A stretch of 45,198 nt of DNA from Flavobacteriales bacterium (GCA_022361195.1 JAKSBJ010000129.1:1-45198), one strand, 5' to 3'; positions 1,576 to 42,488 are shown, counted from the first letter of the stretch. Translations and numbers: made by a program. The notes: generated from the sequence alone by a model not told the origin.

Positions 1576-1582
1576 TTAAAAA

Positions 1583-3854: not shown

Positions 3855-3870
3855 AATCGAAAAATTAGTA

Positions 3871-3905: not shown

Positions 3906-3916
3906 TTATGGAAATA

Positions 3917-4744: not shown

Positions 4745-4768
4745 TTTATTTTCTTTTTAAGTTAATTA

Positions 4769-7333: not shown

Positions 7334-7399
7334 AACTTTCGGTTTATTAAATTATTATTCAACTATTTAAAAATCATTTATTTATTAAAACTTATTTAA

Positions 7400-18010: not shown

Positions 18011-18015
18011 GTAAT

Positions 18016-18736: not shown

Positions 18737-18747
18737 ACTTTTGGTTT

Positions 18748-21224: not shown

Positions 21225-21228
21225 TCTT

Positions 21229-21399: not shown

Positions 21400-21409
21400 A
21401 CTTTTAGCG

Positions 21410-22328: not shown

Positions 22329-22371
22329 AATGGTATATTTTAATGGTTTTTATTCGTGATTAAATTTTTGA

Positions 22372-23943: not shown

Positions 23944-23973
23944 ATTTTGTTTCTGTTTATTTAGTTATTGTAT

Positions 23974-24792: not shown

Positions 24793-25364
24793 TGATTTGG
24801 TAAAACTGGATTGGATTGGTTGGTAACCGGAGCGACAAAACCTTGTGTATTTTCTGACTCAATAGTGATTAATCTCATCTTATAAATCACAGAAGGAACA
24901 TATTTCGCTCCCATTGCACTCCAAAGGTTATGCATCTCGAAATAACTGATTTTCTCTACTTCAAATTCAAGGCGATCAATTCCCTCGGGAAGATTTGAGT
25001 ACGAAGAAGAATTAACCACTGGATTTATCTGGAAAAACTGAATTCCCGAATTGAGAAACTTGAGTGTTTCTGTATAATCATCAAAACTTGAAGACACTAA
25101 TAGGTCTATATTATACCTTTCGGGCCGTCTTACATTTGAGAAGCTTCCATCCGACAAGCGTTGGTTACGTACATAAAACTGGCGATTAGTTTCCTGAGCA
25201 ATATTGATCATAGAAATGACCAACTTATTTTGATTTGGCTTGGGAACCGAACCATCGGCTTCAATAAGGTTATTGATCAACACTTTTGATTCGTTCAAAC
25301 CAAATTGATTACGTACAAACTGATCCAATGAATTGGCAGTAAACTGTAGCACTGTGTCGATCAT
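24789..25364 (-). CDS. DUF4255-like protein, candidate tube/sheath terminator cap (Afp16/Pvc16-like N-domain), 191 aa. First gene of the operon.
   Basis: It has the size and N-terminal pattern (MIDTVLQFTANSLDQFV...) of cap-family proteins that often open eCIS loci. The assignment is tentative. It is preceded by a 206-bp promoter region. Confidence 0.45.
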   Translation of the reverse strand: MIDTVLQFTANSLDQFVRNQFGLNESKVLINNLIEADGSVPKPNQNKLVISMINIAQETNRQFYVRNQRLSDGSFSNVRRPERYNIDLLVSSSFDDYTETLKFLNSGIQFFQINPVVNSSSYSNLPEGIDRLEFEVEKISYFEMHNLWSAMGAKYVPSVIYKMRLITIESENTQGFVAPVTNQSNPVLPNQ

Positions 25365-25453
25365 CTTTATATAAGGTTTACTTTCTCGTTTTGGGTTTGT
25401 GAAAAAAGTCTGATCGTAAAGTTATTAGGAAGCCATTCGGAAAAAGAATTTCA

Positions 25454-25514
25454 AAATAGACGATCCATAGACAGCTTTTTAAATGATTAAAAAAAGCATA
25501 GACAAAACATAGAC
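25454..25514 (-). promoter_or_regulatory. Candidate operator or promoter of the eCIS operon. Two pairs of direct repeats (ATAGAC / CATAGACA on the plus strand, TGTCTATG on the coding strand) sit at 25455, 25466, 25497 and 25508. Spacing is 11 bp within each pair and 42 bp between pairs.
   Basis: The repeats were read directly from the sequence. They lie 90-150 bp upstream of the first eCIS start codon and downstream of the LuxR-family gene. Confidence 0.35.
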
Positions 25515-25570
25515 ATGGCGTTTTGGGCAAAAAAACTCCCTCAAACAGAACTCTTTATAAAGGCTGGATT

Positions 25571-26497
25571 TTAGACTAGATCCGAATAGATTTCACGATT
25601 TCCTCTACTCTCCTGAATGGGAGTTGAAGTTCTTGAAGAAAAAGATTGTAAATAGTTTCTCAGGTTTTGATCCTTAGACAAGGCCATTTTCTTTTTGAGG
25701 CGGTATTTGTGCGTCCGAACACTTTCGGAATTAATGCTCAACAGACGTTTAATGTCTTCGGTAGACATATTCATCTTTAAATAGCAGCAATATTTTAAAT
25801 CACGTGAAGTAAGGCCTGGAAATTTTTGGGAGAGCCTTTCGAGGAACTGTGGATTAATACTTTCAAAATAGATTTTAAAGTCATCCCAATGTTTTTCATC
25901 CGAAGTAGACACTTTTATTGAATTCATAATGGACATCAACTCTCTGCGGGTTGATTCATCTACATTTGAAATTAAATCACTAATGCGCCTTTTTACCTGG
26001 ATTAAAGTTTGATTCCGTTTCTCAATTTCCATAACATGCCGGCTAAGATTACGACTGTAATTGGACTGTTGATCAACCAGACTACCTGCAGGAACAAATG
26101 ATTTTTGTAAGGGTTGTTCCCTTAAACGTGCGAGTTTGAGAATAGATCGGACCTTTAAACAAAAACTATGAGGCTGTTCCAAAATATCTTCTCGTTCAAA
26201 AAAGACAATATTATGATCTTCACAACGCACTGGTTGAACATGATGCATTTTATTAATACATAAAACCGGAATGCTAAATTTCCTCCAATGAACATTCAAA
26301 CCATTTAAAGCACTTTGGTTATCCTCAAAACTCATAAGAAGAAGAGAAGGCTTAATGCTTTTGGTAATGGATAATACCTCAGCATGACGACTTGCTGTGA
26401 CAAAATCAGCTTCTATTTCAGACCTTAATAATTGCATGATTGCAACTAGTTTATCTGGTCTGTCACAGCAAAGAATTATGCAGGCACGCTTTGTCAT
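25571..26497 (-). CDS. LuxR-family transcriptional regulator with a degenerate, receiver-like N-domain (atypical response regulator), 308 aa.
   Basis: The C-terminal HTH reads STEDIKRLLSINSESVRTHKYRLKKKM, which is LuxR/GerE type. The N-terminal region has a receiver-like layout, but CDRPD replaces the DD pair and LLLMSFEDN replaces the phospho-acceptor LxxD. Confidence 0.65.
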   Translation of the reverse strand: MTKRACIILCCDRPDKLVAIMQLLRSEIEADFVTASRHAEVLSITKSIKPSLLLMSFEDNQSALNGLNVHWRKFSIPVLCINKMHHVQPVRCEDHNIVFFEREDILEQPHSFCLKVRSILKLARLREQPLQKSFVPAGSLVDQQSNYSRNLSRHVMEIEKRNQTLIQVKRRISDLISNVDESTRRELMSIMNSIKVSTSDEKHWDDFKIYFESINPQFLERLSQKFPGLTSRDLKYCCYLKMNMSTEDIKRLLSINSESVRTHKYRLKKKMALSKDQNLRNYLQSFSSRTSTPIQESRGNREIYSDLV

Positions 26498-27223: not shown

Positions 27224-28459
27224 TTGAATGCTACCCTGAAAAAACTGCTGAACTGTAGCAAAAATGTTTTCCTTTTTCTGCTTTTAATTCCAGGACCTGG
27301 ATTTGGACAGTACGATTCTTATACAGACACTTTAGCCGAGATAAAACGGAAAAAAACACATTATGAATATTCCTATTATGATTCAGGCGAATTGTTATCT
27401 ATTGAGAGAGGACGCTGGAGATCAGACATTCCTATCAAGTCCTATTTTTATAAAAACGGTTATTTAAAAACTGATGTATTTATTGGTGCCACATACCACT
27501 ACTCTGAGTCTGTCAAAGATCAAATTGTGCAACGTCTTATAGGAAACCCAGATTACCCTGGTGCTCCAACATATGATTATAGGGATGGGGAATTGTATCA
27601 AATCACATCCTTAAAAAGAGTTAATAAAGGGATGACTAAAATCCCTTACATGATTTCAAAAGGACAATTTATAAAACAAAGACTTTACGATGGAACCATT
27701 AATTTTTATTCAGAAGATGATCAATTCCTTGTATCAAAAAAGGTGAAAAATGGAAAACAACAAGAAGGTTTAATTTATCAGGGAGAAATCTGTAATTTGA
27801 CTGATAGTACTGGCAAAAGACAAGGTAAATGGGTTGATTTGGGGCTAAAGAGTTATGAAGAGGATCTTTCGTCAGGAGATCTAAAAAACAAGTTTATCCA
27901 AAAAATTGAGTTCTATGAAGACGGAATTCCAGTTGACACAACTTTTCGTTTCTACAAGTCTGGGAATCTGCATAGCATCCATATCCACCAAAAAGACAGT
28001 ATTGCACCATACAGCATTCTTTACCGGGAAGATGGGACACTAAAACAAAAAATAACTTACTCAAAAGACCAAAATGGCCTTTTTTCCATCCTAACTACAC
28101 ATTATTATTCTGACTCAATACAGGATTGTATTGTTAAAAAGACAATTGAACGAAAAGGACAAGCATTTCCTAATTTCACCTATGCATTCAAAGACTGTCA
28201 ACTCTACTCCAAAACATCTACCCGACGAGAAATTTATCATAATGATGAAACAACAGAAATTGAAGAAATTATTGACGGAAGAACATATACCCGAACAGTA
28301 GAAATTGGGTTTGATACTCGGCCAATTCCTTACACCGCGGAAATTGGAACCTTTGATGATGAGGGGGTGAACCTAGTAAATGGGAAAATATGTTACTATT
28401 CAGCTAGAGGAGAATTATTACATTGCAAAGAGGTCATTAACGGTTTAATTATTGAATAA
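27224..28459 (+). CDS. Secreted MORN-variant (YwqK-like) repeat protein, 411 aa.
   Basis: A signal peptide (LFLLLIPGPGFGQ) is followed by repeated Y-x-x-G-x-L/K-x-x-x-x-Y units, for example YYDSGELLSIERGRW, FYKNGYLKTDVF, FYKSGNLHSIH and YREDGTLKQKITY. Confidence 0.5.
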   Translation: MNATLKKLLNCSKNVFLFLLLIPGPGFGQYDSYTDTLAEIKRKKTHYEYSYYDSGELLSIERGRWRSDIPIKSYFYKNGYLKTDVFIGATYHYSESVKDQIVQRLIGNPDYPGAPTYDYRDGELYQITSLKRVNKGMTKIPYMISKGQFIKQRLYDGTINFYSEDDQFLVSKKVKNGKQQEGLIYQGEICNLTDSTGKRQGKWVDLGLKSYEEDLSSGDLKNKFIQKIEFYEDGIPVDTTFRFYKSGNLHSIHIHQKDSIAPYSILYREDGTLKQKITYSKDQNGLFSILTTHYYSDSIQDCIVKKTIERKGQAFPNFTYAFKDCQLYSKTSTRREIYHNDETTEIEEIIDGRTYTRTVEIGFDTRPIPYTAEIGTFDDEGVNLVNGKICYYSARGELLHCKEVINGLIIE

Positions 28460-29191
28460 ATGAATAGGGTAATTCTGGCTACAAGCATTAAACGTTTTTT
28501 ATTTAGCTTGTTTATCACACTAGCTTTAGTTTCTTGTAAAAATGAAACTGCTGATTCTATTCCCACCTCCAAAAGTGATAGTGAAATACCAGAACAAGAT
28601 TCTCTGGATAGCTCCTCCAAACCGACTCTTTATACTGGGCAAAGTAGTGATTCTATCTACAGTTGTGATTTATTGATTGAGGGTGACAGTTCCGTTATTT
28701 TTGTTGTGAGCCAAAGAGAAGCCTGGATATATACTGAATATCGTGGGGAAATGACTCACTTAAAAGACTCCATTTACAAACTCGATTTGGAATTAGACTA
28801 TGGCCACTACATCTGCAGAGCCTGGCGACATGACAGTCTTCAACTCTTAAGAAATCCTAACCAATTTCCTGAATTGGATTCTGCCGAAGTATGGTATAAA
28901 AATGGAACTGTTTTAAACCAAAAAGTAATCAGTGATGATTATATTTCCTACCCTATTCCAATTGACAGCTTTTATCGAAAACAAAGTATCTATGTTGATC
29001 CTCATCACCAAAACCCAATTACCAATGAGGCTTTAATTTTAGGGATTCCCAGTATGTCATCATCCGAATTTATAAGAGGTGAAAAATTAAACTTTGAGCT
29101 GTTCTTATCAAAAGATAAGCTATACCCTGTTGACGAAAAAGTACTCCAATTTGGAAACTTTGAACTAACACTAGCTTCTACATTACCTTAA
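28460..29191 (+). CDS. Hypothetical lipoprotein, 243 aa.
   Basis: A signal peptide with a lipobox-like LALVSC is followed by a Ser/Asp-rich linker. Its start abuts the stop of the upstream gene. Confidence 0.45.
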   Translation: MNRVILATSIKRFLFSLFITLALVSCKNETADSIPTSKSDSEIPEQDSLDSSSKPTLYTGQSSDSIYSCDLLIEGDSSVIFVVSQREAWIYTEYRGEMTHLKDSIYKLDLELDYGHYICRAWRHDSLQLLRNPNQFPELDSAEVWYKNGTVLNQKVISDDYISYPIPIDSFYRKQSIYVDPHHQNPITNEALILGIPSMSSSEFIRGEKLNFELFLSKDKLYPVDEKVLQFGNFELTLASTLP

Positions 29192-29332
29192 GTTTCTTTC
29201 TTAACTATATCCCTTTTTTTGTGTCAGCCGCTCAAGAAAAGTGCCATCCCCTAAGTTATTTTGGACATAAAATAGGGTCTTCTTATTTTCAATGGAAATT
29301 ATTTAACCCCTATTAAGAGAAAGTAAAACTGC

Positions 29333-30043
29333 ATGAGTATTAAGGCGATCATCATTGAAGATGAAAAATCTTCCAGAATAGTATTAAAAAGTTATATCAA
29401 TCGGTATTTCCCTGATGTAATTGTTGAGTCAGAACAGGATACGGTAGAAGGGGCTATTAACTATTTGCAAAATCATTCCCCAGACATTATCTTTTTAGAC
29501 ATTCAACTAAGAGATGGAATTGGCCTTGATATTTTTGAACGAATCAATTCTGAAAATCAACGTATCATATTTACAACAGCTAATTCGGAATATACTCTTA
29601 AGGCTTTTGAACTAAAGGCATTTGGTTATCTATTAAAGCCTTTTAGTCCTGTCGATTTTAAGAAGATCATGAACAGAATCATTAAGGACATTTCATACGC
29701 TGATATTAGTCAAAACAAGATAAAAGTCAATGTTAAACAAGGCATTGTATATCTCAACCCTCAAGACATTATCCGTTGTGAATCACAAAGTAATTACACC
29801 GAGATTTTTTGCAAATCATCGCACAAACCCTTTGTAATTGCCAAAACTCTCAAAATGGTTGAATCAATATTAACCAGTAGCCACTTTTTCTTTCGCATTC
29901 ATCAATCTCATTTGGTGAACTTTTCATACATCACCAAACCAATCATTAAAAACAATAGTATTGAATTAACTACTGGAGAGTTTTTACCCATTTCCAAATC
30001 GAGAAAATCTGATTTCACAGAATTTCTTGGGCGACTTAGCTAG
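29333..30043 (+). CDS. LytTR-family response regulator (REC plus LytTR DNA-binding domain), 236 aa.
   Basis: The receiver reads IIEDE...DIIFLDIQLRDGIGLD. The C-terminal LytTR region includes IIRCESQSNYTEIF and FFRIHQSHLVN. Confidence 0.8.
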   Translation: MSIKAIIIEDEKSSRIVLKSYINRYFPDVIVESEQDTVEGAINYLQNHSPDIIFLDIQLRDGIGLDIFERINSENQRIIFTTANSEYTLKAFELKAFGYLLKPFSPVDFKKIMNRIIKDISYADISQNKIKVNVKQGIVYLNPQDIIRCESQSNYTEIFCKSSHKPFVIAKTLKMVESILTSSHFFFRIHQSHLVNFSYITKPIIKNNSIELTTGEFLPISKSRKSDFTEFLGRLS

Positions 30044-30051
30044 ACAGATGG

Positions 30052-30801
30052 TTATTTAAACTGTTCTAAGAAACCGGCCTTACGATAACGGCTAACATTG
30101 AACTTTTCTCCATCCGTCATCTGCACTTTGCCACCTACTCCTTTATAATATTTAGTAATGTGTCGTAAATTGACGATGGTACTTTGATGAATTCGATAAA
30201 AACCATGTTCATACAACAATTCCTCATACTCTCCAAGCGTGGTACTTGTCATTATTTTACGATTTCCGGTTAAAATGAAATTGGTGTAATTTCCATCTCC
30301 CTCCAAACGAATGATATCTTCTACCAAAGAGACATCAAAACCTTTCATATGATTGATGATCAGCTTTTTGATCTTTCGTTCATCTTGATAATTCTCCATC
30401 AACACTTTAACCCGATTATTAGCTCCTTCTTTTAAAGCTTGTAAATGATTCTCCAAACGATCTACAACCACCTTAAGTTCATCCAATTTCATGGGTTTAA
30501 GCAAATAGCCAAATGCTGAGAACTGAAATGCTTGTATAGCATATTGATTATAAGCCGTTGTAAATACTACTTCAAAATCAACGTTCTCTATCTTTTGCAA
30601 TAAGTCAAAGCCCGTTCCTTCATGCATTTGTACATCCAAAAAGATAACATCCGGCTTTGTTTTTTGAATGACCTCTACTCCACTATTTACGTCATCTGCC
30701 TCGCCGACAACTTTTATGGGACTATTGGGTAAACGATCCAACATCCCCAACAACAGTCTCCTTGCCGGATTTTCATCATCAATTATTACTGTTCGGATCA
30801 T
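30052..30801 (-). CDS. LytTR-family response regulator, 249 aa, translationally coupled to the upstream kinase.
   Basis: The receiver reads VIIDDE...DVIFLDVQMHEGTGFD. The LytTR region includes IIRLEGDGNYTNF and FYRIHQSTIVN. It has an ATGA overlap with the kinase gene. Confidence 0.8.
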   Translation of the reverse strand: MIRTVIIDDENPARRLLLGMLDRLPNSPIKVVGEADDVNSGVEVIQKTKPDVIFLDVQMHEGTGFDLLQKIENVDFEVVFTTAYNQYAIQAFQFSAFGYLLKPMKLDELKVVVDRLENHLQALKEGANNRVKVLMENYQDERKIKKLIINHMKGFDVSLVEDIIRLEGDGNYTNFILTGNRKIMTSTTLGEYEELLYEHGFYRIHQSTIVNLRHITKYYKGVGGKVQMTDGEKFNVSRYRKAGFLEQFK

Positions 30802-32678
30802 ATTGGCACTTTTACGGTTACTAAGGTTCCTGGAGAAAGGCTTTGTACCTTTACTTTAGTTCCCAAACGTTGTTCGGTTATCTTCATTCCTTTAGATTCA
30901 TGCGTAGAGGACTTTACAACATTATCTATCCCCACTCCATTATCTTCTATTTCACAAATCAAATGACGAGCATTGTCTTGTATACGCATTCTAACTTTAA
31001 CCAGGCCCTTTTCTTTTTTTGGTAAAATCCCATGCCAAATTGCATTTTCAACAAAGGGCTGAATAACCATGGGCGGAACCTTTGTTCCCAATTTATCAAT
31101 CCGATCATCCAAATCAATCTGATACTCCAACATCCCAATATTACGTCCTTTTTCCAAATCAAGATAAAGACGTAACATGCTCATTTCTTCCTTTATAGTA
31201 ATCTTTTCTTTACCACTATTGTCCAATATTTTACGCATGAGTTTACCAAAGTCGCCCATATAGTCGTTGGCCATGTCTAACTCTCCCGTAATATACAATT
31301 GCTGAATAGCTCCTAAACTGTTAAATATAAAGTGAGGATTCATTTGAGCACGAAGAATTTTTTGCTCCATTTCGGCTTTATTTCTTTGCTCTTTGGCTCT
31401 TCGTCTACTAACGTAAAAAAGAATTACCATAATAAATGCAATACCTATGACGCTACCAGAAATCAACATAATTTTCCGCCTTTCGGCAATAGCATTTGCC
31501 TCAACTTCACGTTTTTCCAATTCAGCAATTTCCTTATCCTTTTGACTTGTTTCATACTTTGTTTGAAGCTCGTTGATTTGGTTTTTGACATCTTCCCCTG
31601 CCAAACTATCATCTAATGCATGATATTTAACATGCCACTCATAAGCTTCTTTATAGTCTCCATTAATTCGATAGGCATCTGAAAGGCCCCTATAAGAGAG
31701 TATTAACATAGGTAAGGTTCCTATTTGCTGGTTAATGGTTAAACTACTGTCATAATAGGCTATCGCTCTATTGCCATTTTGTAACTCACTCTCAATTCCG
31801 CCTAAATTATTGTAAATCATCCCAATTTCTGATTGTTGATTTAAGTGACGATAAATGTTCAATGCATCTGCATAATAAAACTTCGCACTATCCAATTCGT
31901 TGGTTTCTTTATAAATAACTCCAATGTTATTATTGAGAATGGCTATGTCATGAGAATTACTTACTTGTTTTGCCACCCTCAACGTTTGTTTGAGTTTATC
32001 CAAAGCTTTATTATATTTCTCCTGAGCAATATATACAGCAGAAACAGCATTCATACCTCTAACAATGCTGGCAGAATCACCGAGAGTCTCTCTTATGGAT
32101 AACGAACGTTGAAAAAAATCCAAGGCCTGATCATTTTGTCCAAGGCTAAAATGTACGTTTCCAACATTATGATAGGACTGTGCCTCTCCCACCTTACTCT
32201 CAACTTTCTCATAAATATCTGCTGCAGTCAGATAATAAGCCATTGCTTCGGGATAATTTCCCTGTATGATTTCTACATTACCAAGTCCAGTCATATTACC
32301 AGCTACACCAATATAGTGCTCAACAGCGGTGAAGCAATTTCGGCTTTTATGATACATCTGCCTGGATTTGTCATAATCTCCACGAAAATCATAATAGGAA
32401 CCATAATAATGATATGAGAATCCCTGCCCCTTTTTATAATCTAATTCCTGAGCCAAAGCCAGAGCTTTGTCCAAACACTCTTTTGCTTTTTCGGGTTCTG
32501 TTTTTGATTGAAGTTTATACAGTTTATTTAAGGCTATAACTTCATTTGTATCTCTTTTATTTTCGTTGACAAGCTCATATAACTCTTCAATGCTCTCCTG
32601 TCCAAAAACGTTCATCCCCACAAAGAAGAACCCCAGAAAAATCCATCCCTTTTTTAAATATCTTGTTAGTTCCTTCAT
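30798..32678 (-). CDS. Sensor histidine kinase with an N-terminal signal peptide, a TPR-repeat sensor domain, one transmembrane helix and a LytS/YehU-type His_kinase plus HATPase core. 626 aa.
   Basis: TPR-like repeats run through residues about 60-360. The TM segment is IMLISGSVIGIAFIMVILFYV. The LytS-type H-box reads QMNPHFIFNSLGAIQQL. The C-terminal ATPase region includes EDNGVGI. Confidence 0.75.
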   Translation of the reverse strand: MKELTRYLKKGWIFLGFFFVGMNVFGQESIEELYELVNENKRDTNEVIALNKLYKLQSKTEPEKAKECLDKALALAQELDYKKGQGFSYHYYGSYYDFRGDYDKSRQMYHKSRNCFTAVEHYIGVAGNMTGLGNVEIIQGNYPEAMAYYLTAADIYEKVESKVGEAQSYHNVGNVHFSLGQNDQALDFFQRSLSIRETLGDSASIVRGMNAVSAVYIAQEKYNKALDKLKQTLRVAKQVSNSHDIAILNNNIGVIYKETNELDSAKFYYADALNIYRHLNQQSEIGMIYNNLGGIESELQNGNRAIAYYDSSLTINQQIGTLPMLILSYRGLSDAYRINGDYKEAYEWHVKYHALDDSLAGEDVKNQINELQTKYETSQKDKEIAELEKREVEANAIAERRKIMLISGSVIGIAFIMVILFYVSRRRAKEQRNKAEMEQKILRAQMNPHFIFNSLGAIQQLYITGELDMANDYMGDFGKLMRKILDNSGKEKITIKEEMSMLRLYLDLEKGRNIGMLEYQIDLDDRIDKLGTKVPPMVIQPFVENAIWHGILPKKEKGLVKVRMRIQDNARHLICEIEDNGVGIDNVVKSSTHESKGMKITEQRLGTKVKVQSLSPGTLVTVKVPI

Positions 32679-32934
32679 TCAATTACAATTAGCTTAAAAG
32701 TATAGCATTAGCTAAATTCATCTCAAATCACAAAGAAAACTACTTTTGAATTAAGATATGGATTCAGACTTAGCGAATTCGTATACATTTTTTAACGAAA
32801 AAAGACTAAGTTCTCCTACTTTCAACAGAAAAGTACATTTTTCGTTACCGCTTTGAGAATAGTTTATTTTCTAAAGGAAAAATACAGGATTGTAGATTAA
32901 CAGTTGCCTGAGAGATGGCAATTGGAGTAATCAT

Positions 32935-33636: not shown

Positions 33637-35010
33637 TTACTTCCCAATACAAAAATTAGAAAAGATATTCCCCAACAAATCATCGGAGGAAATTTGACCG
33701 GTAATTTCACCTAAAAGATTGAGCGTTTCCCGAATATCCATGGCCAACAAATCACCTGGTATTTGCATTTCAAGCCCCTCTTCTACTTTCACCAATGATT
33801 CTTCACATCTCACTAAAATCTCATAATGACGAATGTTGGTAACAATTAACTGATCTTCGGCACTTTCGTTTTGAACGGTGGCCAACAACTGTTCTACCAA
33901 TTCATTGAGGTTCTCTTGTTTTTTAGCAGAAATGAACAAACCTTTATCCTTTAGCTTTTTAAAATCCTTTGATTTGGTTTTATCTACTTTATTGAAAAGA
34001 GCAATTAGGGTTTGTCCTTCTCCCAAAGTCTTTTGTTCAAAGTTTTCAATCTGCCCCAACACAAACTCTTCGCTAGAAGTGTCCAAATCAAACAATAATA
34101 GAACTACCCGGGCTTTTTTGATTTGTTCAAAAGCACGTTCAATTCCCAAGTTTTCAATGGTATCAGAGGTTTCCCGAATTCCAGCAGTATCAATAAATCG
34201 GAATTCAATTCCTTCCAATACAATGGTATCTTCAATTACATCTCTTGTGGTTCCAGCAATGTCCGAAACAATGGCCTTATCTTCTTTTAAAAGGGCATTG
34301 AGTAAGGTTGACTTTCCAGAATTTGGAGCACCTACAATCGCTACCGGAACTCCATTTTTACTGGCATTTCAATATTGAAAAGATTGACAAAGTGAAGTCA
34401 CCTTAGCTTTCACCTGACTCACCAATTCTTTTAATTGCGTACGATCAGCAAACTCAACATCCTCCTGAGAAAAATCTAACTCTAATTCAACCAATGAGGC
34501 AAAATCCATCAATCCCTGACGCAATTCTGAAATCTCTTTGGAGAATCCTCCTCGCATTTGATGCATGGCCAAACGATGAGCTGCGGAAGAATTCGCAGCA
34601 ATTAAATCTGCCACCGCCTCTGTTTGAGAAAGATCCATCTTGCCATTCATAAAAGCACGTAACGAAAATTCACCCGCTTGGGCCATTCGTGCTCCTTTTG
34701 AAATCAATAACTTCAACAGCTCACTTTGAATGTATTGTGAACCATGACAAGCAATTTCAACTGTGTCCTGTCCTGTAAAAGAATGGGGACCTTTAAATAA
34801 AGTAACCACCACTTCATCTAAAATATGATCACCCTTTAAAATTTTACCATAATGTGCTGTATGAGAAGCTGCATTTTCAATCGACTTACTAAAAATAGAT
34901 TGGGTAATTGAAAAAGCCTTTCCTCCCGACAAACGGATTAAAGAAATGGCTCCAACTCCATTGGCAGTTGAAAGGGCACAAATTGTATCTTCCTGATTTT
35001 TAAAGCTCAT
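33637..35010 (-). pseudogene. mnmE: tRNA modification GTPase MnmE (TrmE), interrupted by an in-frame TGA at 34369-34371. It is otherwise full length and colinear. The interruption may be a nonsense mutation or a sequence error.
   Basis: The N-terminal part (34369..35010) reads DTICALSTANGVGAISLIRLSG. The same frame continues after the TGA as NASKNGVPVAIVGAPNSGKSTLLNAL (G1 motif), DTAGIRE (G3 motif) and the terminal FCIGK motif. The two ORF-track ORFs are in the same frame, separated only by this codon. Confidence 0.7.
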
Positions 35011-35167
35011 CTTAATTCTGAGACAAATTTAGCATATCTGAGGATTTATGCCTATAAATTCGATCGAAGAACAATTCAAAAAATTTGTGGTTGAAAAAAG
35101 GAATTAATCCCTCAGGCTTTGAAGAATTAATTATTACATTTGAGAACTAAATTAATTAGATTAATAT

Positions 35168-36049
35168 ATGTCCGTTTTAGTTAATAAAGATTCCAAAATC
35201 ATAGTTCAAGGTTTTACAGGTGGTGAAGGTACTTTTCACGCCAGTCAAATGATTGAATATGGTTCAAATGTTGTTGGTGGTGTTACTCCTGGTAAAGGAG
35301 GACAAAGTCACCTTGACAGACCTGTTTTTAATACCGTTGAAGAGGCGGTGAAAGCAACCGGAGCTGATGTTTCCATCATTTTTGTTCCACCTGCTTTTGC
35401 AGCTGATGCCATTATGGAAGCGGCTAATGCAGGAATTAAAGTAATTATTGCCATTACCGAAGGAATTCCGGTAGCGGACATGGTAAAAGCCAAAGATTAT
35501 ATTTCTTCATACGATTGTCGATTAATCGGACCTAACTGCCCTGGTATTATTACTGCTGGAGAAGCTAAGGTTGGTATTATGCCAGGATTTATCTTCAAAA
35601 AAGGAGGAGTTGGAGTTGTTTCTAAGTCAGGAACATTGACTTATGAGGCTGCTGACCAAGTTGTGAAAGCTGGATTGGGAATTACAACTGCCATCGGAAT
35701 TGGTGGTGACCCAATTATTGGAACAACGACTCAAGAGGCTGTTGAATTGTTGATGGCTGATCCTGAAACTGAAGGAATCGTGATGATTGGTGAAATTGGT
35801 GGAAATCTTGAAGCTAAAGCTGCAAGATGGATCAAAGAAAATGGAACCAAGCCTGTTGTAGGATTCATCGCTGGAGAAACTGCTCCTGCAGGACGTACAA
35901 TGGGACATGCCGGAGCAATTGTTGGAGGTGCTGAAGACACTGCTCAAGCTAAAAAGCAAATTATGAGAGATTGTGGAATTCACGTGGTTGATTCCCCTGC
36001 TGAAATTGGAAAGAAAATGGCAGAGGTGTTAGGCGTGAGTGTAGCATAA
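35168..36049 (+). CDS. sucD: Succinyl-CoA synthetase alpha subunit.
   Basis: Matching regions are [20 protein letters not shown], the CoA-binding region, and GHAGAIVGG containing the phosphohistidine loop. Confidence 0.9.
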
Positions 36050-36068
36050 TTTTCAAAATATATTATTG

Positions 36069-36101
36069 AAAGCGCCTCACGAAAGTTTGGCGCTTTTTTT
36101 A
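36069..36101 (+). terminator. Rho-independent terminator after sucD.
   Basis: The stem AAGCGCC...GGCGCTT is followed by TTTTTTT. Confidence 0.6.
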
Positions 36102-36111
36102 TTTCAAAAAA

Positions 36112-36630
36112 ATGGATTATTTCAACTTACAAAGCGAACGATTACAATTTAGAAAACTCAGCAGGGAGGATATTCCTAAATGGACGACCTTTTTCAATGC
36201 GAAAGGCAATGACAGTCTCCCCTACCTTGGAATTGACATGAGCAAAAGCGCTGAGGAGATTGCGACAGAGTGGATTGAGCTTCAGTTTCCACGTTATGAG
36301 AATGTAGGTTTAGGACATTTGGCTATTGAATTAAAATCAACAGGTGAATTTATTGGAGTAAGTGGTATAATCCCCAGAGAAATTAAGGAACAGGATCGAT
36401 TTGAAATTGCATATACCCTTCACCCCGATTTTTGGGGCAATGGATACGGTTCTGAAGCTGCTCAGCGACTAAAAGAGTTTGGAAAAAATCAACTCAAAAT
36501 AAAAAAATTCATTTCCATTATTCATATTAATAATGAACGCTCCATCAATGTGGCAAGGAAAAACGGAATGGAGGTACTCTTTCACCTTGAAAACTTTAAA
36601 GGAATGCCGGTTGATGTTTACGGCGATTAA
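36112..36630 (+). CDS. GNAT-family N-acetyltransferase (RimJ/RimL-like), 172 aa.
   Basis: Matching regions are ERLQFRKLSREDIP, IGVSGI and the acetyl-CoA motif FWGNGYGSEAA. Confidence 0.7.
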   Translation: MDYFNLQSERLQFRKLSREDIPKWTTFFNAKGNDSLPYLGIDMSKSAEEIATEWIELQFPRYENVGLGHLAIELKSTGEFIGVSGIIPREIKEQDRFEIAYTLHPDFWGNGYGSEAAQRLKEFGKNQLKIKKFISIIHINNERSINVARKNGMEVLFHLENFKGMPVDVYGD

Positions 36631-36695
36631 GTAACTAATTCAAGCTTATTTAAAAACAGTTTTCTTTTAAAGAATTCTTACGCTTCTCATTACAT

Positions 36696-37460
36696 TTGCC
36701 GCAAATTATTGAGACGATGAAATATCTTTTGTGGCTTTTTTTGTTGATTTCTTATTCGGGCTTTTCGCAAATTGTGAACATTGAAAACAAGCGTTTAGAA
36801 AAGAAAGAGGGTTTTTCGGGGAATATTGACCTGAACCTAAATTTTATCATGAATACGAAACAACTACTCCAGATTGGAGACAAGTTAAAGGTGGCCTATA
36901 CCAAACGTAAAAGTCATTTGTTATTAATTACTGACCATAGCTTTATTAAGTCAGAAGGACAAGATTTTGTAAACAGAGGTTATGAGCACGTCCGGTTCAA
37001 TTACACACTAAAAGATAGTGGGCGAATTGATTATGAAGTTTTTCAGCAGGGCCAATTCAATAAAATTCAGAAAATCAATCTTCGATTGTTATTGGGAACG
37101 GGATTTAGACTGAACCTGGTACGACAAAAAAAATACGACATGAATTTTGGTACTGGATTTATGGGAGAATATGAAGAGTTGATTGATAATGGAATTTCAC
37201 GAGATGTGTTGTCCAGCTCTTACCTTTCTTTTGACGCTCAATTTACACCTAGTTTTGGCTTTAATACCATCACCTATTTTCAACCCAAACTGATTGACTT
37301 TGGTAATTATCGTTTGGCGAATGAAAGTTATATACGTCTTAAAATCAATAAATATCTCACTTTTAAAGTGATTTATTCATTGGCACATGATTCACGGAAT
37401 ATACCAGATGTCCGTAAAACCAATTACACCTTAAAAAATACCCTGAGTTTTAAATTTTAA
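36696..37460 (+). CDS. Putative outer-membrane beta-barrel protein (DUF481-like), 254 aa.
   Basis: A signal peptide (LLWLFLLISYSGFSQ) is followed by an amphipathic beta pattern ending in a C-terminal F. Confidence 0.4.
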   Translation: MPQIIETMKYLLWLFLLISYSGFSQIVNIENKRLEKKEGFSGNIDLNLNFIMNTKQLLQIGDKLKVAYTKRKSHLLLITDHSFIKSEGQDFVNRGYEHVRFNYTLKDSGRIDYEVFQQGQFNKIQKINLRLLLGTGFRLNLVRQKKYDMNFGTGFMGEYEELIDNGISRDVLSSSYLSFDAQFTPSFGFNTITYFQPKLIDFGNYRLANESYIRLKINKYLTFKVIYSLAHDSRNIPDVRKTNYTLKNTLSFKF

Positions 37461-37483
37461 CCTCTTTAGCTTAGTTTTGTTTC

Positions 37484-37993
37484 ATGAAGAACATCATCAC
37501 AACAGACCGTCTCGACTTAAGAGAATTTTCGCTGGAAGAAGCTCCTTTAATGGTTGATCTAAATGCCGATCCTGAAGTCATGAAATACACAGGTGACGTT
37601 GCCTTTTCATCCGTTGAAGATGCTGAAAATTTAATTCGAAATTACGACCAATACAAACGATTTGGCTTTGGAAGATGGAGCGTGTACTTAAAAGAAAGTG
37701 GCGAATTTATTGGCTGGTGTGGTTTAAAACAGCATGAGGATGGAATGATTGATTTAGGGTATCGTTTTTTTCAGAACCAATGGGGAAAAGGATATGCAAC
37801 CGAATCGTCAATAGCTTGCATTGATTACGGTTTTAACCAATTAAAAATGGAAGAGATTGTTGGCCGTACAGCGAAAGCTAACATCCCTTCCATTCGAGTT
37901 CTTGAAAAAGCAGGCATGGTTTTCTGGAAAGAAGCACCTTGTGAGGGCATTGAAAACTCAGTCTACTATAAAATTGTTAATCCAAATTCTTAG
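37484..37993 (+). CDS. GNAT-family N-acetyltransferase (RimL-like), 169 aa.
   Basis: Matching regions are DRLDLREFSLEEAP, IGWCGL and QWGKGYATES. Confidence 0.7.
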   Translation: MKNIITTDRLDLREFSLEEAPLMVDLNADPEVMKYTGDVAFSSVEDAENLIRNYDQYKRFGFGRWSVYLKESGEFIGWCGLKQHEDGMIDLGYRFFQNQWGKGYATESSIACIDYGFNQLKMEEIVGRTAKANIPSIRVLEKAGMVFWKEAPCEGIENSVYYKIVNPNS

Positions 37994-39024
37994 AATTTAA
38001 AGAACCACGAGCATTGTGGAACTGGAAAACTAATTACCTGATTTCGTCTTGCAAAAGTGGCTCCTGCTAAAGCTACTTGAAATGCATTTTTATCTGATTT
38101 TTGAAAACGCATTCCCGGCATTACAAAAAACATAGCCGTAAATTCCTTTGAAGTTGAAACTTGAATTTGATCTGGCTCTAAGTCTGGATTATTCCATGAA
38201 TGAGTAACTGTCTTGTATTTTTGATTCGATAAAGAGAACATTGAATCAAAAATAAAGCTCACATTTTTTCCTAATTTTTTTGTTGCAGCTACTTGAAAAA
38301 TAGGTGAATGCTTTAACTGGGCATCATTAGAATAAATTTCATCCCAGGAATCATAAATTCCATCTTCAGCAACAATTGGTCTTCCAAATACAGAATTGTT
38401 CCCTGCATCAAAATATCCATATCCAGCAGATAAACTTACATTATTGGCATGAGATCCATAAGTGAAAGTTCCCCAATGTAAACCTCCGTATCCACTAAAC
38501 TGATTAAAGTAACCACTAGTTCCGATTAAAGTTCCCAAGGCAAGGTTTACCTTATCATTTTTAGTTTTAAAACTCTTTTTTAAAGCCAAAACAAAAGGAC
38601 TCGCCCACCAGGTAGTCATAATTCCGGCTGAAAAGCCTTTTCCTAAGGACATATGAACTTCAGGTCCATATAAATGAATCATGGCATAATTATCTCCTTT
38701 TTCCAGAGGGAGCGCATTTGTGGTAAAATAATAACGTGTAGCAAATGGACCTTTTGGTTCATATCCTCCATCTTTATTATAGTCCTCATCTCCAACATTT
38801 TTTATGGATTTAATGGATGCTTTTGGAATATATATTTTTCCCAACTCTTCTGTCTCCATTAAAATTTCTCTTCCATCATCACTCAAAATAACGCCCATGT
38901 ATTTGGTTCCATCAGATTTGGTGACAACTTTTATCTCTTTCTTAGTTGTGTCAGATGGTTCGGCCTGGCCAAAGGCTAAACTTCCCGCAAAAATCAGTAA
39001 CACGCTCAATAATAACGTTTTCAT
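37990..39024 (-). CDS. Putative secreted or outer-membrane protein, 344 aa.
   Basis: A signal peptide (LLLSVLLIFAGSLAFGQ) is present, and the C-terminus is an aromatic WFFKF. Confidence 0.4.
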   Translation of the reverse strand: MKTLLLSVLLIFAGSLAFGQAEPSDTTKKEIKVVTKSDGTKYMGVILSDDGREILMETEELGKIYIPKASIKSIKNVGDEDYNKDGGYEPKGPFATRYYFTTNALPLEKGDNYAMIHLYGPEVHMSLGKGFSAGIMTTWWASPFVLALKKSFKTKNDKVNLALGTLIGTSGYFNQFSGYGGLHWGTFTYGSHANNVSLSAGYGYFDAGNNSVFGRPIVAEDGIYDSWDEIYSNDAQLKHSPIFQVAATKKLGKNVSFIFDSMFSLSNQKYKTVTHSWNNPDLEPDQIQVSTSKEFTAMFFVMPGMRFQKSDKNAFQVALAGATFARRNQVISFPVPQCSWFFKF

Positions 39025-39216
39025 AGCTTTCTTTTTTGTTATTCACCCTTCTTACTTATTTTAAAGATACAATTACTTGGGTGATGTTTACGGTGTAAAA
39101 TTAGATAGGAAGTACAGAAATTTTAAATTGATTTTCGCATTGTACTTTTAAAATTTGCGGAAAACGCAAATAAGTACTTTTCAGGAATTGCTGATATATT
39201 TGTCAAAAGTTGATTT

Positions 39217-40116
39217 ATGTATGATGTTGTTCTACTAACCGAAAAAAAATATATCAATCCTACCGATGTTGATTGGTATGTTGAGCAGGTTTTACAAGAA
39301 GATGGATTAGTAAAAGAAGCGCTTGAAGCGGAGGGATTAAAGTGCACCATTAAAGCCTGGTGTGATTCTGATTTTGATTGGGCTTCGACTAAAACGGTTT
39401 TGTTTAGAACAATTTGGGATTATTTTCATCGGTTTGATGAATTTTCAAAATGGCTAGAGGAAACCAAACATAAAACCAAAATGATTAATCCTTACGCTCA
39501 AATTAAATGGAATGTGGACAAGCATTATTTAGGAGATTTGGAGCAAAAGGGAATTAACATCGTAAAATCACACTTTATTGAAAAAGGAGATTCCAAAAAT
39601 TTAGCTGATTGGCATCAAGAGTTAGGATGGTCAGAAACTGTTTTAAAACCTTGCGTTTCGGGTGGTGGTCGTCATACTTACCGTCTCAACCCTGATAATT
39701 ATGCTGAACATGAAGCTGTTTTTAAGGAACTGATTCAGGACGAAGCTATGATGCTTCAGCCTTTTATGAAAAATGTACCTACTAAAGGAGAAGTTTCACA
39801 TATTGTTATTGGAGGCCAATATTCACACTCCATCTTAAAAATTGCAAAAAAGGGAGATTACCGTGTTCAGGATGATTTTGGAGGAAGTGTTCATGATTAT
39901 ACTGCCAATGAACAGGAAATAAAGTATGCTGAAAGTGTCGCTAAAGCTTGCGAACCCCTTCCCTATTATGCCCGAGTAGATGTTATTTGGGATGATAATG
40001 ATGAATTGGCCTTAGGAGAGGTAGAGTTAATTGAGCCTGAACTTTGGTTTAGAAATTTCCCGGAAGCAGCAAAAATGCTGGCCCGGGAAATTACATCAAG
40101 AGAATTTAGCGTTTAA
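39217..40116 (+). CDS. ATP-grasp domain protein (RimK / glutathione-synthetase-like fold), 299 aa.
   Basis: The C-terminal pattern LKPCVSGGGRHTY ... ARVDVIWDDNDELALGEVELIEPELWF resembles an ATP-grasp C-domain. A TATATTTG -7 box (Bacteroidota TAnnTTTG type) lies 16-23 nt upstream. Confidence 0.45.
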   Translation: MYDVVLLTEKKYINPTDVDWYVEQVLQEDGLVKEALEAEGLKCTIKAWCDSDFDWASTKTVLFRTIWDYFHRFDEFSKWLEETKHKTKMINPYAQIKWNVDKHYLGDLEQKGINIVKSHFIEKGDSKNLADWHQELGWSETVLKPCVSGGGRHTYRLNPDNYAEHEAVFKELIQDEAMMLQPFMKNVPTKGEVSHIVIGGQYSHSILKIAKKGDYRVQDDFGGSVHDYTANEQEIKYAESVAKACEPLPYYARVDVIWDDNDELALGEVELIEPELWFRNFPEAAKMLAREITSREFSV

Positions 40117-40976: not shown

Positions 40977-42488
40977 TTATTCTTCGTCATTATCAGAAGA
41001 ATCAACTTCTTCAGCATTTACATCTTCTACTTTCTTCTTTTTCAAATAATCCGGCAACTCCATTCCAGCCATGTTAAACATTTCCTCTAATGGTGGAACC
41101 GATCCATAAAGTCCACTTAAGAAACCAGCCGTAGATGTTTTTCCATCTTTCCCTGATTTTCCGGAATCCCAAACAGTAACTTTATCAATTTTAATATTCT
41201 TAATTGCTTCAGCCTGGAATTTAACCATATCTTCCAATTTATCAGCAATAAGTAGTAATGCAGCATCTTTTGAACTACCTCCAGCGGCTTTTACGATTTG
41301 ATCAAAACCTTGTGCCTGTTTGGTTAGGATTTCATACAACCCTTTCGCCTCTGCCTCTTTTCTTAAGAAAATCGCATCAGCCTCCCCTTTTGCAACACGA
41401 CGAATGTTCTCCGCTTCTGCTTCCGCATCAATTTCAACCTTTGACTTTTGAATTTGAGCTGGGATAATGATGTTGGCGTATTCTGTAGCCTGATCTCTTT
41501 CGGCACGAGCCTGCTCAGCAACCTGCTCAGCGTGATATGATTCCTCGAGTGCTTTTGCCGCCTGAACTTTCTCTGAAGCAATCGCGGTTTTCTCAGCCTC
41601 TGCTTGCTTGGTTCTTCTCAATGAATCTGACTCTGCAATGGCAATTTGAGAGGTATTCTCCCCTTCAATCGCTGTTGCATTGGCTGCTGCAATTTTAATA
41701 CGCTCTGTTTTAGCTGCCTCGGCTTCACCAATTTTAGCTTTAGCCACAGCATCTGCAACTTGAATTCTCTCATCTTGTACTGCATTCGCCTCACCAATAG
41801 ATCCATCTCTATTCTTTTCAGCAACTGAAGTACGCGCTTCGTTAATTGCATGTGCGGCAGCTTCTTTACCAAGAGCCTCAATATATCCTGACTCATCTTT
41901 AATATCCGTTACGTTAACGTTGATGAGTTTAAGACCAATTTTCTTTAGCTCAGCCTCTACGTTGTGAGATACATTTGACAAGAATTTATCACGGTTGTTG
42001 TTGATCTCTTCAATGTCCATCGTTGCAATCACCAAACGTAACTGACCAAAAAGGATATCTGTTGCTACTGCTTTGATTTGATCTTTGCTCAATCCTAACA
42101 AACGCTCAGCTGCATTATTCATGATAGTTGGCTCTGTTGAGATACCCACCGTAAATCGCGAAGGAACATCCACCCGGATATTTTGTTTCGAAAGGGCATT
42201 TGTTAACTCCACTTCAATTGAGATTGGTGTCAAGTCCAAAAATGCGTAATCCTGAATAATGGGCCATATAAACGAAGCTCCACCATGTACACATTTTGCT
42301 GTACGACCACCTTCTCCTCCTCCGGAGACCTTACCGTAAACAACTAAGATTCTATCAGAAGGACAACGTTTGTACCTTCTGAACATCGCATAAACGAATA
42401 TCACGAAGAAGAGTACGCCTGCTGCGATTCCAATAAGGGCAAAAGGAACTCCTCCTATGCCACCTTCCTGTAATAAAACTAAATTCAT
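40977..42488 (-). CDS. Flotillin-like SPFH/Band-7 protein (YqiK-like), 503 aa.
   Basis: An N-terminal TM segment is followed by an SPFH domain (VHGGASFIWPIIQDYAFLDLTPISIEV...), an Ala/Glu-rich coiled coil and an acidic C-terminus. Confidence 0.8.
   Translation of the reverse strand: MNLVLLQEGGIGGVPFALIGIAAGVLFFVIFVYAMFRRYKRCPSDRILVVYGKVSGGGEGGRTAKCVHGGASFIWPIIQDYAFLDLTPISIEVELTNALSKQNIRVDVPSRFTVGISTEPTIMNNAAERLLGLSKDQIKAVATDILFGQLRLVIATMDIEEINNNRDKFLSNVSHNVEAELKKIGLKLINVNVTDIKDESGYIEALGKEAAAHAINEARTSVAEKNRDGSIGEANAVQDERIQVADAVAKAKIGEAEAAKTERIKIAAANATAIEGENTSQIAIAESDSLRRTKQAEAEKTAIASEKVQAAKALEESYHAEQVAEQARAERDQATEYANIIIPAQIQKSKVEIDAEAEAENIRRVAKGEADAIFLRKEAEAKGLYEILTKQAQGFDQIVKAAGGSSKDAALLLIADKLEDMVKFQAEAIKNIKIDKVTVWDSGKSGKDGKTSTAGFLSGLYGSVPPLEEMFNMAGMELPDYLKKKKVEDVNAEEVDSSDNDEE

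What the first reader, a model, noticed from the sequence alone, without database searches (positions are those of the whole stretch)
34369..34371. In-frame TGA interrupting an otherwise intact mnmE
The two ORF-track ORFs at 33637..34218 and 34369..35010 are in the same frame and colinear with full-length MnmE. The N-domain, the G1 motif GAPNSGKS, the G3 motif DTAGIR and the C-terminal FCIGK are all present. Only one TGA codon separates them.

The stop sits about seven codons before the P-loop, in the sequence ...SFQY*NASKNGVPVAIVG. Homologues have Gly here, so GGA to TGA is one substitution away. TGA is used as an ordinary stop in neighbouring genes (the GH25 gene, for example), which argues against a recoded genetic code.

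The possibilities are a recent nonsense mutation (loss of mnm5s2U tRNA modification affects decoding fidelity), a sequencing or assembly error, or rare stop-codon readthrough.
Basis: seen in the sequence. Interest (0 to 1): 0.5.

Follow-up and report, generated by a model that had tools for sequence, protein, structure and literature searches.

The report
Strain-specific nonsense mutation in mnmE
The tRNA-modification gene mnmE of this uncultured Crocinitomix-like bacterium carries a real premature stop codon (GGA changed to TGA) that another strain of the same species lacks, so it is an ordinary, young gene-inactivating variant rather than a recoded or specially read codon.

Summary
mnmE lies on the minus strand (33637..35010), and codon 214 is TGA (34369..34371). 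The rest of the 457-codon frame is open and collinear with full-length MnmE.

The stop replaces a Gly that is invariant in 120/120 homologous proteins and is GGN in 72/72 Bacteroidota loci. It sits at the first residue of the G domain.

The decisive result is an intact allele of the same species. Metagenome sample SAMN24292812 (contigs L083/L084, 99.8% identical over 3.6 kb) reads GGA here. Its 457-aa protein differs from the window's only at G214 (stop in the window) and I217 (Ser in the window).

The TGA+AGT allele recurs in two assemblies of a different sample, SAMN24292840, on a different SNP background. A Logan contig that I infer comes from that sample ends exactly one base before the variant.

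Differences between the strains are mostly synonymous (64 synonymous, 16 non-synonymous), so they reflect real divergence rather than noise. TGA terminates 8 other ORFs in the window, so the genetic code is standard.

Best reading, about 0.8: a heritable, recent loss-of-function allele that is polymorphic in the population. A systematic sequencing artefact (about 0.1) and functional readthrough (about 0.05) are not excluded without reads or experiments. This is an ordinary kind of feature and of low novelty.

The parts
33637..35010 (-). The complete mnmE reading frame: 457 codons plus a TAA stop, interrupted once at codon 214.
   Evidence: Translation. The intact same-species allele P0122 scores 400 bits against NF003661 (cut-off 380) and 379.5 bits against TIGR00450 (cut-off 252.6). 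It matches 3gee and 1xzp end to end.
34369..34371 (-). In-frame TGA at codon 214. It derives from GGA by a G to T change at 34371 on the minus strand.
   Evidence: GGA in L083/L084. Gly in 120/120 proteins. GGN in 72/72 loci. Aligns with residue 1 of the isolated G-domain construct 1rfl.
34360..34362 (-). Codon 217 is AGT (Ser). The intact allele has ATT (Ile), a T to G change at 34361 on the minus strand. This is a second, radical change at a conserved hydrophobic position.
   Evidence: Homologues have I/L/V/M in 120/120.
34372..35010 (-). The only product expected from the gene as written: a 213-aa N-terminal fragment. It holds the TrmE_N domain and the first part of the helical domain, with no G domain and no CIGK motif.
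   Evidence: ORF list. Precomputed Pfam hits TrmE_N and MnmE_helical. 171.6 bits, below the NCBIfam cut-off of 380.
33640..34368 (-). Downstream remainder: G domain (G1-G4), C-terminal helical part and CIGK. It is still open and undecayed, but has no in-frame ATG/GTG/TTG before the P-loop.
   Evidence: Only two synonymous differences (34060, 33736) and I217S separate it from the intact allele.
34367..34380 (.). A perfect 14-nt palindrome, TTTCAATATTGAAA, created by the nonsense substitution. The intact allele has TTTCCATATTGAAA on the + strand, a quasi-palindrome with one mismatch.
   Evidence: Only 0.106% of all possible single substitutions in the window would create a perfect palindrome of 14 nt or more. 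This was noticed after the fact, so it is only suggestive.

Best explanation
This is a genuine, heritable loss-of-function allele of mnmE, and it is polymorphic within the species.

In the lineage sampled by the window, codon 214 changed from GGA (an invariant Gly at the first residue of the G domain) to TGA. Codon 217 changed from ATT (Ile) to AGT (Ser).

Under the standard code that this genome uses, translation stops after residue 213. The product is an N-terminal fragment with no GTPase domain and no C-terminal CIGK motif. MnmE needs GTP hydrolysis by its G domain to work with MnmG. Cells carrying this allele should therefore lack the (c)mnm5 group on wobble U34 of the tRNAs that MnmEG modifies. 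That consequence is inferred, not shown.

The inactivation is young. The rest of the frame is undecayed, and an intact allele persists in another strain of the same species.

How the nonsense change arose is unknown. It turns a quasi-palindrome into a perfect 14-nt palindrome, which would fit a template-switch mutation. An ordinary G:C to T:A transversion explains it just as well.
For: Shown:
- The in-frame TGA is in the sequence.
- The code is standard: TGA ends 8 other ORFs, and a family profile ends at one of them.
- Gly is invariant at this position (120/120 proteins; 72/72 loci GGN).
- The same-species intact allele P0122/L083/L084 reads GGA and ATT. It has only 6-7 mismatches in 3632 nt, and the protein is identical apart from residues 214 and 217.
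- The TGA+AGT allele is also on contig k141_784651 of ERZ27314259. The same truncated 213-aa protein is called on a second ENA contig of 6624 nt.
- Other contigs tie ERZ27314259 to ERZ23486785, the depositor's assembly of SAMN24292840.
- That sample's sequence differs from the window at 5 sites in 4.7 kb (4 synonymous, 1 non-synonymous). It also differs at 25 sites in the adjacent 3.8 kb. It is therefore a different strain or read set.
- Logan contig SRR18532257_952459 shares the 34861 variant with k141_784651. It ends at 34372, the base before the variant. This is as expected if both alleles are present in that run.
- Window versus the intact-allele strain: 83 SNPs in 22.3 kb, of which 64 are synonymous, 16 non-synonymous and 3 intergenic. 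This is real divergence under purifying selection, not assembly noise.
- Neither fragment reaches the MnmE family cut-off on its own.
- No in-frame start codon lies between the stop and the P-loop.

Against: - No reads were available, so allele frequencies and strand balance are unknown.
- Both changes are G-T / A-C transversions. That class is also typical of Illumina miscalls and of oxidative library damage (my own knowledge). Both also lie among short inverted repeats.
- All three contigs on record that carry the 213-aa product end within about 40 nt of the site. This could reflect either true heterogeneity or a troublesome sequence.
- Only the window shows the TGA allele joined to the downstream half of the gene.
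- Whether the genome has a second mnmE copy, or some suppression mechanism, cannot be seen from a 45-kb window.
- Loss of a nearly universal gene in a free-living bacterium is expected to be costly. That makes its presence on at least two SNP backgrounds mildly surprising.
Confidence: 0.8

Rival explanations
1. Systematic sequencing or library artefact. The true sequence is GGA/ATT everywhere. A context-dependent error at this inverted-repeat-rich spot produced TGA/AGT k-mers that won in some assemblies.
For: - Both changes are G-T (A-C) transversions.
- They lie within overlapping short hairpins and palindromes, next to a GGC motif on the + strand.
- Contigs in sample SAMN24292840 break at or within 41 nt of the site.
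- That organism is at low abundance in the public samples, where contigs are short.
Against: - The same two-base allele appears in the window (a contig of at least 45 kb, which suggests good coverage) and in two assemblies of another sample with different linked SNPs.
- A sample with the same CARD22-1 name prefix gives GGA/ATT in two assemblies. A purely sequence-driven error should hit it too.
- The other differences between these contigs are 4:1 synonymous, so they behave as real variation.
Confidence: 0.1
2. The gene is still functional. The UGA is decoded by near-cognate readthrough, by selenocysteine, or with help from the downstream mRNA hairpin. Enough full-length MnmE is then made, possibly as a regulatory device.
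For: - The downstream frame is fully open and undecayed.
- The 72 nt from the UGA onward fold to -17.6 kcal/mol (z = -1.9).
- The second substitution (U to G in codon 217) ranks 4th of 207 possible single changes for stabilising that fold.
- The allele sits on at least two SNP backgrounds.
Against: - The stop is not conserved. It is absent from 72/72 related loci, and the sister strain has GGA with the same downstream sequence.
- The replaced residue is an invariant Gly. The read-through product would also carry I217S at a position that is always hydrophobic.
- The hairpin gain shrinks to 1.6 kcal/mol when 31 nt of upstream context are added.
- There are no Rfam hits and no tRNA genes in the window.
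- TGA works as an efficient terminator in neighbouring genes.
- An undecayed frame is simply what a young pseudogene looks like.
Confidence: 0.05
3. Hot-spot or adaptive null allele. The quasi-palindrome TTTC(C/A)ATATTGAAA is a template-switch hot spot that turns mnmE off repeatedly, and perhaps reversibly. Alternatively, the null allele is maintained or spread by selection, for example for altered decoding or for resistance to toxins that target modified anticodons.
For: - The nonsense change perfects a 14-nt palindrome. Only 0.106% of possible substitutions would do so.
- Quasi-palindromes are known template-switch mutation hot spots (PMC7202029, abstract as listed).
- The allele occurs on different SNP backgrounds.
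Against: - The palindrome was noticed after the fact. Its arms are only 7 nt, AT-rich and without a spacer.
- The second change (34361) is not explained by the same template. An inverted copy extended that far would have altered four more bases. That change also breaks a small ancestral hairpin.
- SNP pairs 10 nt or less apart are common between these strains (9 of 82 gaps between adjacent SNPs, counted from the positions listed), so no special event is needed.
- Both changes are always seen together, which argues for one origin rather than recurrence.
Confidence: 0.04

Closest known systems
Strain-specific nonsense pseudogenes (young gene inactivations that are polymorphic within a bacterial species)
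   Same: A single premature stop in an otherwise undecayed frame. An intact allele sits in a strain that is 99.6-99.8% identical. The standard genetic code is in use.
   Different: The gene affected is a nearly universal translation-fidelity factor rather than an accessory gene. The allele is seen on more than one SNP background.
Laboratory mnmE (trmE/thdF) null mutants of E. coli and other bacteria
   Same: Loss of the G domain and of the C-terminal CIGK motif should abolish MnmEG-dependent U34 modification. This is an inference. GTP hydrolysis is required for MnmE function (PMC3695501 and PMC4027165, abstracts as listed).
   Different: This is a natural allele in an uncultured member of the Crocinitomicaceae. 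No phenotype or tRNA chemistry is known for it.
Quasi-palindrome-associated template-switch mutations (E. coli and yeast; PMC7202029, PMC3820800)
   Same: The nonsense substitution makes an imperfect inverted repeat perfect.
   Different: The arms are very short (7 nt, no spacer). The companion change 10 nt away is not templated by the same repeat. No evidence of recurrence was found.
Programmed UGA recoding (selenocysteine, readthrough, or TGA reassigned as in genetic codes 4 and 25)
   Same: An in-frame UGA within a conserved gene, at a Gly position. Code 25 reads UGA as Gly (my own knowledge).
   Different: TGA is a normal terminator in this genome. The stop is not conserved in any relative. 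No SECIS-like conserved element or suppressor tRNA was seen.

Membership tests
MnmE (TrmE/ThdF) tRNA U34 modification GTPase | Full-length match to the equivalog HMM above the curated cut-off | tested here: met
   The intact same-species allele P0122 scores 400 bits against a cut-off of 380 (NF003661) and 379.5 against 252.6 (TIGR00450). It differs from the window's frame only at residues 214 and 217.
MnmE (TrmE/ThdF) tRNA U34 modification GTPase | Three-domain layout: N-terminal TrmE_N domain, helical domain with an inserted G domain carrying G1-G4, and a C-terminal CIGK motif | tested here: met
   In the conceptual full frame: GAPNSGKS, GTTRD, DTAGIR, NKVD and CIGK. Precomputed Pfam hits TrmE_N, MnmE_helical and MMR_HSR1 on the intact allele. 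End-to-end alignment to 3gee and 1xzp.
MnmE (TrmE/ThdF) tRNA U34 modification GTPase | An uninterrupted coding sequence that yields one polypeptide | tested here: not met
   TGA at codon 214. The fragments score 171.6 and 215.3 bits, below the cut-off of 380. There is no in-frame start before the P-loop. This is an mnmE gene by descent, but as written it is a pseudogene or null allele.
MnmE (TrmE/ThdF) tRNA U34 modification GTPase | GTPase activity and MnmG-dependent cmnm5U34 formation | not testable with these tools
   Requires biochemistry or tRNA LC-MS. mnmG is not in the window.
Programmed stop-codon recoding (readthrough or selenocysteine) | The stop codon is conserved at the same position in orthologues | tested here: not met
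   GGN in 72/72 Bacteroidota loci. GGA in the sister strain.
Programmed stop-codon recoding (readthrough or selenocysteine) | A dedicated downstream RNA element (SECIS or stimulatory structure) | tested here: inconclusive
   A hairpin forms downstream at -17.6 kcal/mol, z = -1.9. Its gain over the ancestral allele is 4.6 kcal/mol in the 72-nt context but only 1.6 kcal/mol with upstream context. It has a 13-nt apical loop and gives no Rfam hit.
Reassigned genetic code (TGA as a sense codon; tables 4 and 25) | TGA is not used as a terminator, and in-frame TGAs are spread across many genes | tested here: not met
   TGA ends 8 of 36 other ORFs. The CIS_TMP profile ends at its TGA. The six-frame scan flags TGA stops between two open stretches of at least 70 codons at only two other places, 18886 (+) and 41618 (-). 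Both fall in frames other than those of the annotated genes there.
Quasi-palindrome template-switch mutation | The mutant base becomes complementary to the opposite arm of an imperfect inverted repeat | tested here: met
   The change at 34371 converts TTTCCATATTGAAA to the perfect TTTCAATATTGAAA.
Quasi-palindrome template-switch mutation | All clustered changes are explained by one templated inverted copy | tested here: not met
   Extending the inverted copy to 34361 predicts four further changes that are not present (my own comparison with the sequence). No alternative donor with 3 or fewer mismatches lies near the site. The 34361 change weakens a CCATT/AATGG hairpin.
Assembly or base-call error | The variant is confined to one assembly or read set | tested here: not met
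   The same TGA+AGT allele is in the window and in two ENA assemblies of SAMN24292840, with distinct linked SNPs.
Assembly or base-call error | Reads do not support the consensus, or support it on one strand only | not testable with these tools
   No access to reads.

The most novel reading that the evidence does not exclude
The mnmE null allele is not a passing accident. It is kept at appreciable frequency in a natural Crocinitomix-like population and has moved onto different strain backgrounds. Two reasons are possible. Losing the U34 modification could be advantageous under some conditions, for example through altered decoding or escape from toxins that recognise the modified anticodon. Alternatively, the UGA could be leaky enough, with help from the strengthened downstream hairpin, to give tunable MnmE levels.
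Probability: 0.08. Interest if true: 0.55.

Novelty: new member of a known kind. Interest (0 to 1): 0.18.

Why it matters
MnmE is one of the most widely conserved tRNA-modification enzymes, and losing it changes decoding accuracy.

A natural population that carries both an intact and a null allele would offer a small natural experiment on how dispensable wobble-uridine modification is outside the laboratory.

In practical terms, annotators should label this locus as an mnmE pseudogene (nonsense allele). It should not be annotated as two genes, and it is not evidence of an alternative genetic code. As it stands, this is an ordinary strain-level inactivating polymorphism.

Tried and rejected
1. 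Recoded genetic code. Rejected: TGA terminates 8 other ORFs, and a family profile ends at one of them.

2. Compensated frameshift around the stop. I read the other two frames of the local sequence by eye. Neither resembles GNVIKNG.

3. Two exact-pattern scans of JGI metagenome contigs across the site, the second with N at both variable bases. Both found nothing.

4. Homologue search with the C-terminal half, to find same-species fragments. The best hit was only 73% identical. An exact look-up of the 193-aa downstream ORF found it is not on record.

5. The genome-contig scan. The best relatives are only 72% identical at the protein level, so the window's own species is not among the representatives.

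6. Literature search for the sample and run identifiers. Nothing relevant.

7. A single mutational event explaining both changes.
- No donor sequence for gene conversion was found in the window.
- An inverted-copy (template-switch) model fails for 34361.
- The 10-nt spacing is not unusual. 9 of the 82 gaps between adjacent window-versus-strain-B SNPs are 10 nt or less (counted from the positions listed).

8. The idea that both changes strengthen local structure.
- The DNA folds are not significant against shuffles.
- The mRNA hairpin gain depends on how much context is folded.

9. Rfam and tRNA scans of the window. No hits.

10. An attempt to get the downstream half of mnmE from the TGA-carrying sample through neighbouring genes. 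That sample's contigs stop at 32856 on one side and at 34331 on the other.

Full report

Yes. The gene is on the minus strand. The + strand reads TCA at 34369..34371, which on the minus strand is ...TCT TTT CAA TAT TGA AAT GCC AGT AAA AAT GGA....

Translating 35010 down to 33637 gives 457 codons with one internal stop, at codon 214, and a terminal TAA.

The motifs are present: G1 GAPNSGKS (34309..34332), G2 GTTRD, G3 DTAGIR, G4 NKVD and the C-terminal CIGK (33640..33651).

Two small corrections apply. The stop lies 13 codons upstream of the first Gly of the P-loop, not about seven. The first ATG/GTG/TTG after the stop is the TTG at 34218, so the P-loop is outside the downstream ORF as listed.

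**2. Genetic code and organism**

Of the 36 other ORFs of at least 120 aa, 24 end in TAA, 8 in TGA and 4 in TAG. The tape-measure protein matches its Pfam profile to position 463/463 two residues before its TGA. TGA is therefore a terminator here.

The window contains no tRNA genes and gives no Rfam hits.

The best homologues are annotated as Crocinitomix or Crocinitomicaceae (Flavobacteriales). None is more than 72% identical at the protein level, so the species itself is not among the genome representatives.

**3. What the stop replaces**

In an alignment of the 120 best homologues, the position is Gly in 120/120. It sits in the motif S-F-x-x-G-N-[VA]-[ILVM]-K-N-G-V-P.

At the DNA level, 72 of the 80 Bacteroidota loci fetched matched the motif search. 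All 72 have GGN (26 GGA) and none has TGA.

Against solved structures, the position aligns with a Gly of Chlorobium and Thermotoga MnmE, and with residue 1 of the isolated G-domain construct 1rfl. The stop therefore falls exactly at the start of the G domain.

A second anomaly lies three codons further on. The window has Ser217, where all 120 homologues have Ile, Leu, Val or Met.

**4. The decisive comparison: an intact allele in the same species**

An exact look-up of the 213-aa N-terminal product showed that its 90% cluster contains a 457-aa member, P0122. P0122 is identical to the window's conceptual protein except for G214 (stop in the window) and I217 (Ser in the window).

Its DNA is on L083 (the depositor's assembly ERZ23486848, sample SAMN24292812) and L084 (ERZ27314236, which I take to be a re-assembly of the same sample). 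Over 3632 nt it has 6-7 mismatches to the window.

On the coding strand, the intact allele reads TAT GGA AAT GCC ATT and the window reads TAT TGA AAT GCC AGT. Because Gly and Ile are the family consensus, the window's allele is the derived one.

**5. Is the derived allele real or an artefact?**

The TGA+AGT allele is also on contig k141_784651 of ERZ27314259 (L081/L086). The same truncated 213-aa protein is called on a second ENA contig of 6624 nt. Other contigs tie ERZ27314259 to the depositor's assembly ERZ23486785 of sample SAMN24292840.

That sample's sequence is not the window's:
- It differs at 5 sites in 4.7 kb next to mnmE. Four are synonymous and one is non-synonymous.
- It differs at 25 sites in the adjacent 3.8 kb.

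The Logan assembly of run SRR18532257 carries the same private variant at 34861, so I infer it comes from the same sample. Its contig ends at 34372, exactly one base before the variable base. A de Bruijn graph does this when both alleles are present in the reads.

The window and the intact-allele strain differ by 83 SNPs over 22.3 kb (0.37%). Of these, 64 are synonymous, 16 non-synonymous and 3 intergenic. These assemblies therefore report real strain divergence under purifying selection, not noise.

Taken together, the allele is reproducible across read sets, sits on distinguishable backgrounds, and is absent from another sample whose contig names carry the same CARD22-1 prefix. This points to a heritable polymorphism.

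I cannot rule out a context-specific sequencing artefact without reads. Both changes are G-T/A-C transversions, and the site is full of short inverted repeats. All three contigs on record that carry the 213-aa product end within about 40 nt of the site.

**6. Consequence**

As written, the gene yields only residues 1-213: the TrmE_N domain plus the first helices. Neither fragment reaches the MnmE family cut-off (171.6 and 215.3 bits against 380). The intact allele scores 400 bits.

No in-frame ATG/GTG/TTG lies between the stop and the P-loop, so a functional two-piece enzyme is not expected.

MnmE needs GTP hydrolysis by its G domain for tRNA modification (PMC3695501 and PMC4027165, abstracts as listed). 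It acts with MnmG to add cmnm5 to wobble uridines (PMC12397908, abstract as listed). Loss of that modification in carriers of this allele is my inference and has not been shown.

The inactivation is young. Apart from the stop and I217S, the window's gene differs from the intact allele by only two synonymous sites.

**7. How did it arise?**

The G to T change (C to A on the + strand at 34371) turns TTTCCATATTGAAA into the perfect 14-nt palindrome TTTCAATATTGAAA (34367..34380). Only 0.106% of all possible single substitutions in the window would create a perfect palindrome of 14 nt or more. The window holds four such palindromes in all. Perfecting a quasi-palindrome is the signature of template-switch mutagenesis (PMC7202029, abstract as listed).

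I treat this only as a lead, for these reasons:
- It was noticed after the fact.
- The arms are short and AT-rich.
- The second change is not templated by the same repeat. It actually breaks a small CCATT/AATGG hairpin.

The two changes do not need a joint event either. Among the window-versus-strain-B SNPs, 9 of the 82 gaps between adjacent SNPs are 10 nt or less (counted from the positions listed).

**8. Readthrough or recoding**

There is no positive evidence for either.

The stop is not conserved. The residue it replaces is invariant, and the read-through product would also carry I217S.

The mRNA from the UGA onward does fold well (-17.6 kcal/mol, z = -1.9). The codon-217 change ranks 4th of 207 single substitutions for stabilising that fold. 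However, the advantage over the ancestral sequence falls from 4.6 to 1.6 kcal/mol once 31 nt of upstream context are included. The apical loop of 13 nt does not look like a bacterial SECIS (my own knowledge).

I keep this rival at about 0.05.

**9. Verdict**

This is an ordinary kind of feature: a strain-level nonsense allele, or very young pseudogene. What makes it a little unusual is that the gene is nearly universal and the allele occurs on more than one SNP background. It does not indicate an alternative code or a new mechanism.

Interest is low (0.18). Novelty: a new member of a known kind.

Noticed in passing
window 218..26497 (minus strand): A complete-looking extracellular contractile injection system (PVC/Afp/MAC-like) gene cluster. 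Components: GH25 lysozyme (218..1009), AAA ATPase (1583..2944), CIS_TMP tape measure (7400..11548, 320 bits), gp25 baseplate wedge (18016..18444), PAAR (18437..18736), VgrG-like spike (18748..20547), CIS tube (20547..21224), two gp19 tube proteins (21410..22328), sheath (22372..23943) and Pvc16_N (24789..25364). Three large ORFs without Pfam hits (4769..7333, 11541..14225, 14222..18010) may be baseplate or effector proteins.
   Followed up: partly
window 34372..36065: There are no differences between the window and the intact-allele strain across 1694 nt (the upstream half of mnmE plus sucD). About 6.3 SNPs are expected from the density elsewhere (P about 0.002). The identical tract ends exactly at the nonsense site. 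This could be a recent recombination tract or just a strongly conserved region.
   Followed up: partly
window 29099..32856 versus 34331..39049, compared with L096/L097 and L086: Contigs from sample SAMN24292840 differ from the window by 0.67% in the two-component-system region but by only 0.1% next to mnmE. This suggests a mosaic (recombining) population, or several co-occurring strains in that sample.
   Followed up: partly
window 39242, compared with L095 (JGI 3300044604): A third, more divergent strain (0.7%) has a 1-nt deletion near the start of the ATP-grasp (DcsG-like / glutathione-synthetase-like) gene at 39217..40116. The gene is called there as 238 aa rather than 299 aa. This may be a frameshift, a different start codon or a homopolymer error.
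   Followed up: no
window 27224..28459 and 28460..29191 (+ strand): Two ORFs with no family hits lie in the same frame, separated only by a TAA followed directly by ATG. They are probably two adjacent genes, but a second interrupted gene was not excluded.
   Followed up: partly
window 29333..32678: Two LytTR-type response regulators in convergent orientation (29333..30043 on the + strand, 30052..30801 on the minus strand). The second overlaps by ATGA the end of a TPR-containing histidine kinase (30798..32678).
   Followed up: no
window 17606..17619, 20858..20871, 41358..41371: Three further perfect 14-nt palindromes: ATAATCATGATTAT, CACCTTTAAAGGTG and TTTTCTTAAGAAAA. My rough back-of-envelope chance expectation for a genome of this base composition is about five, so they are probably unremarkable.
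   Followed up: no
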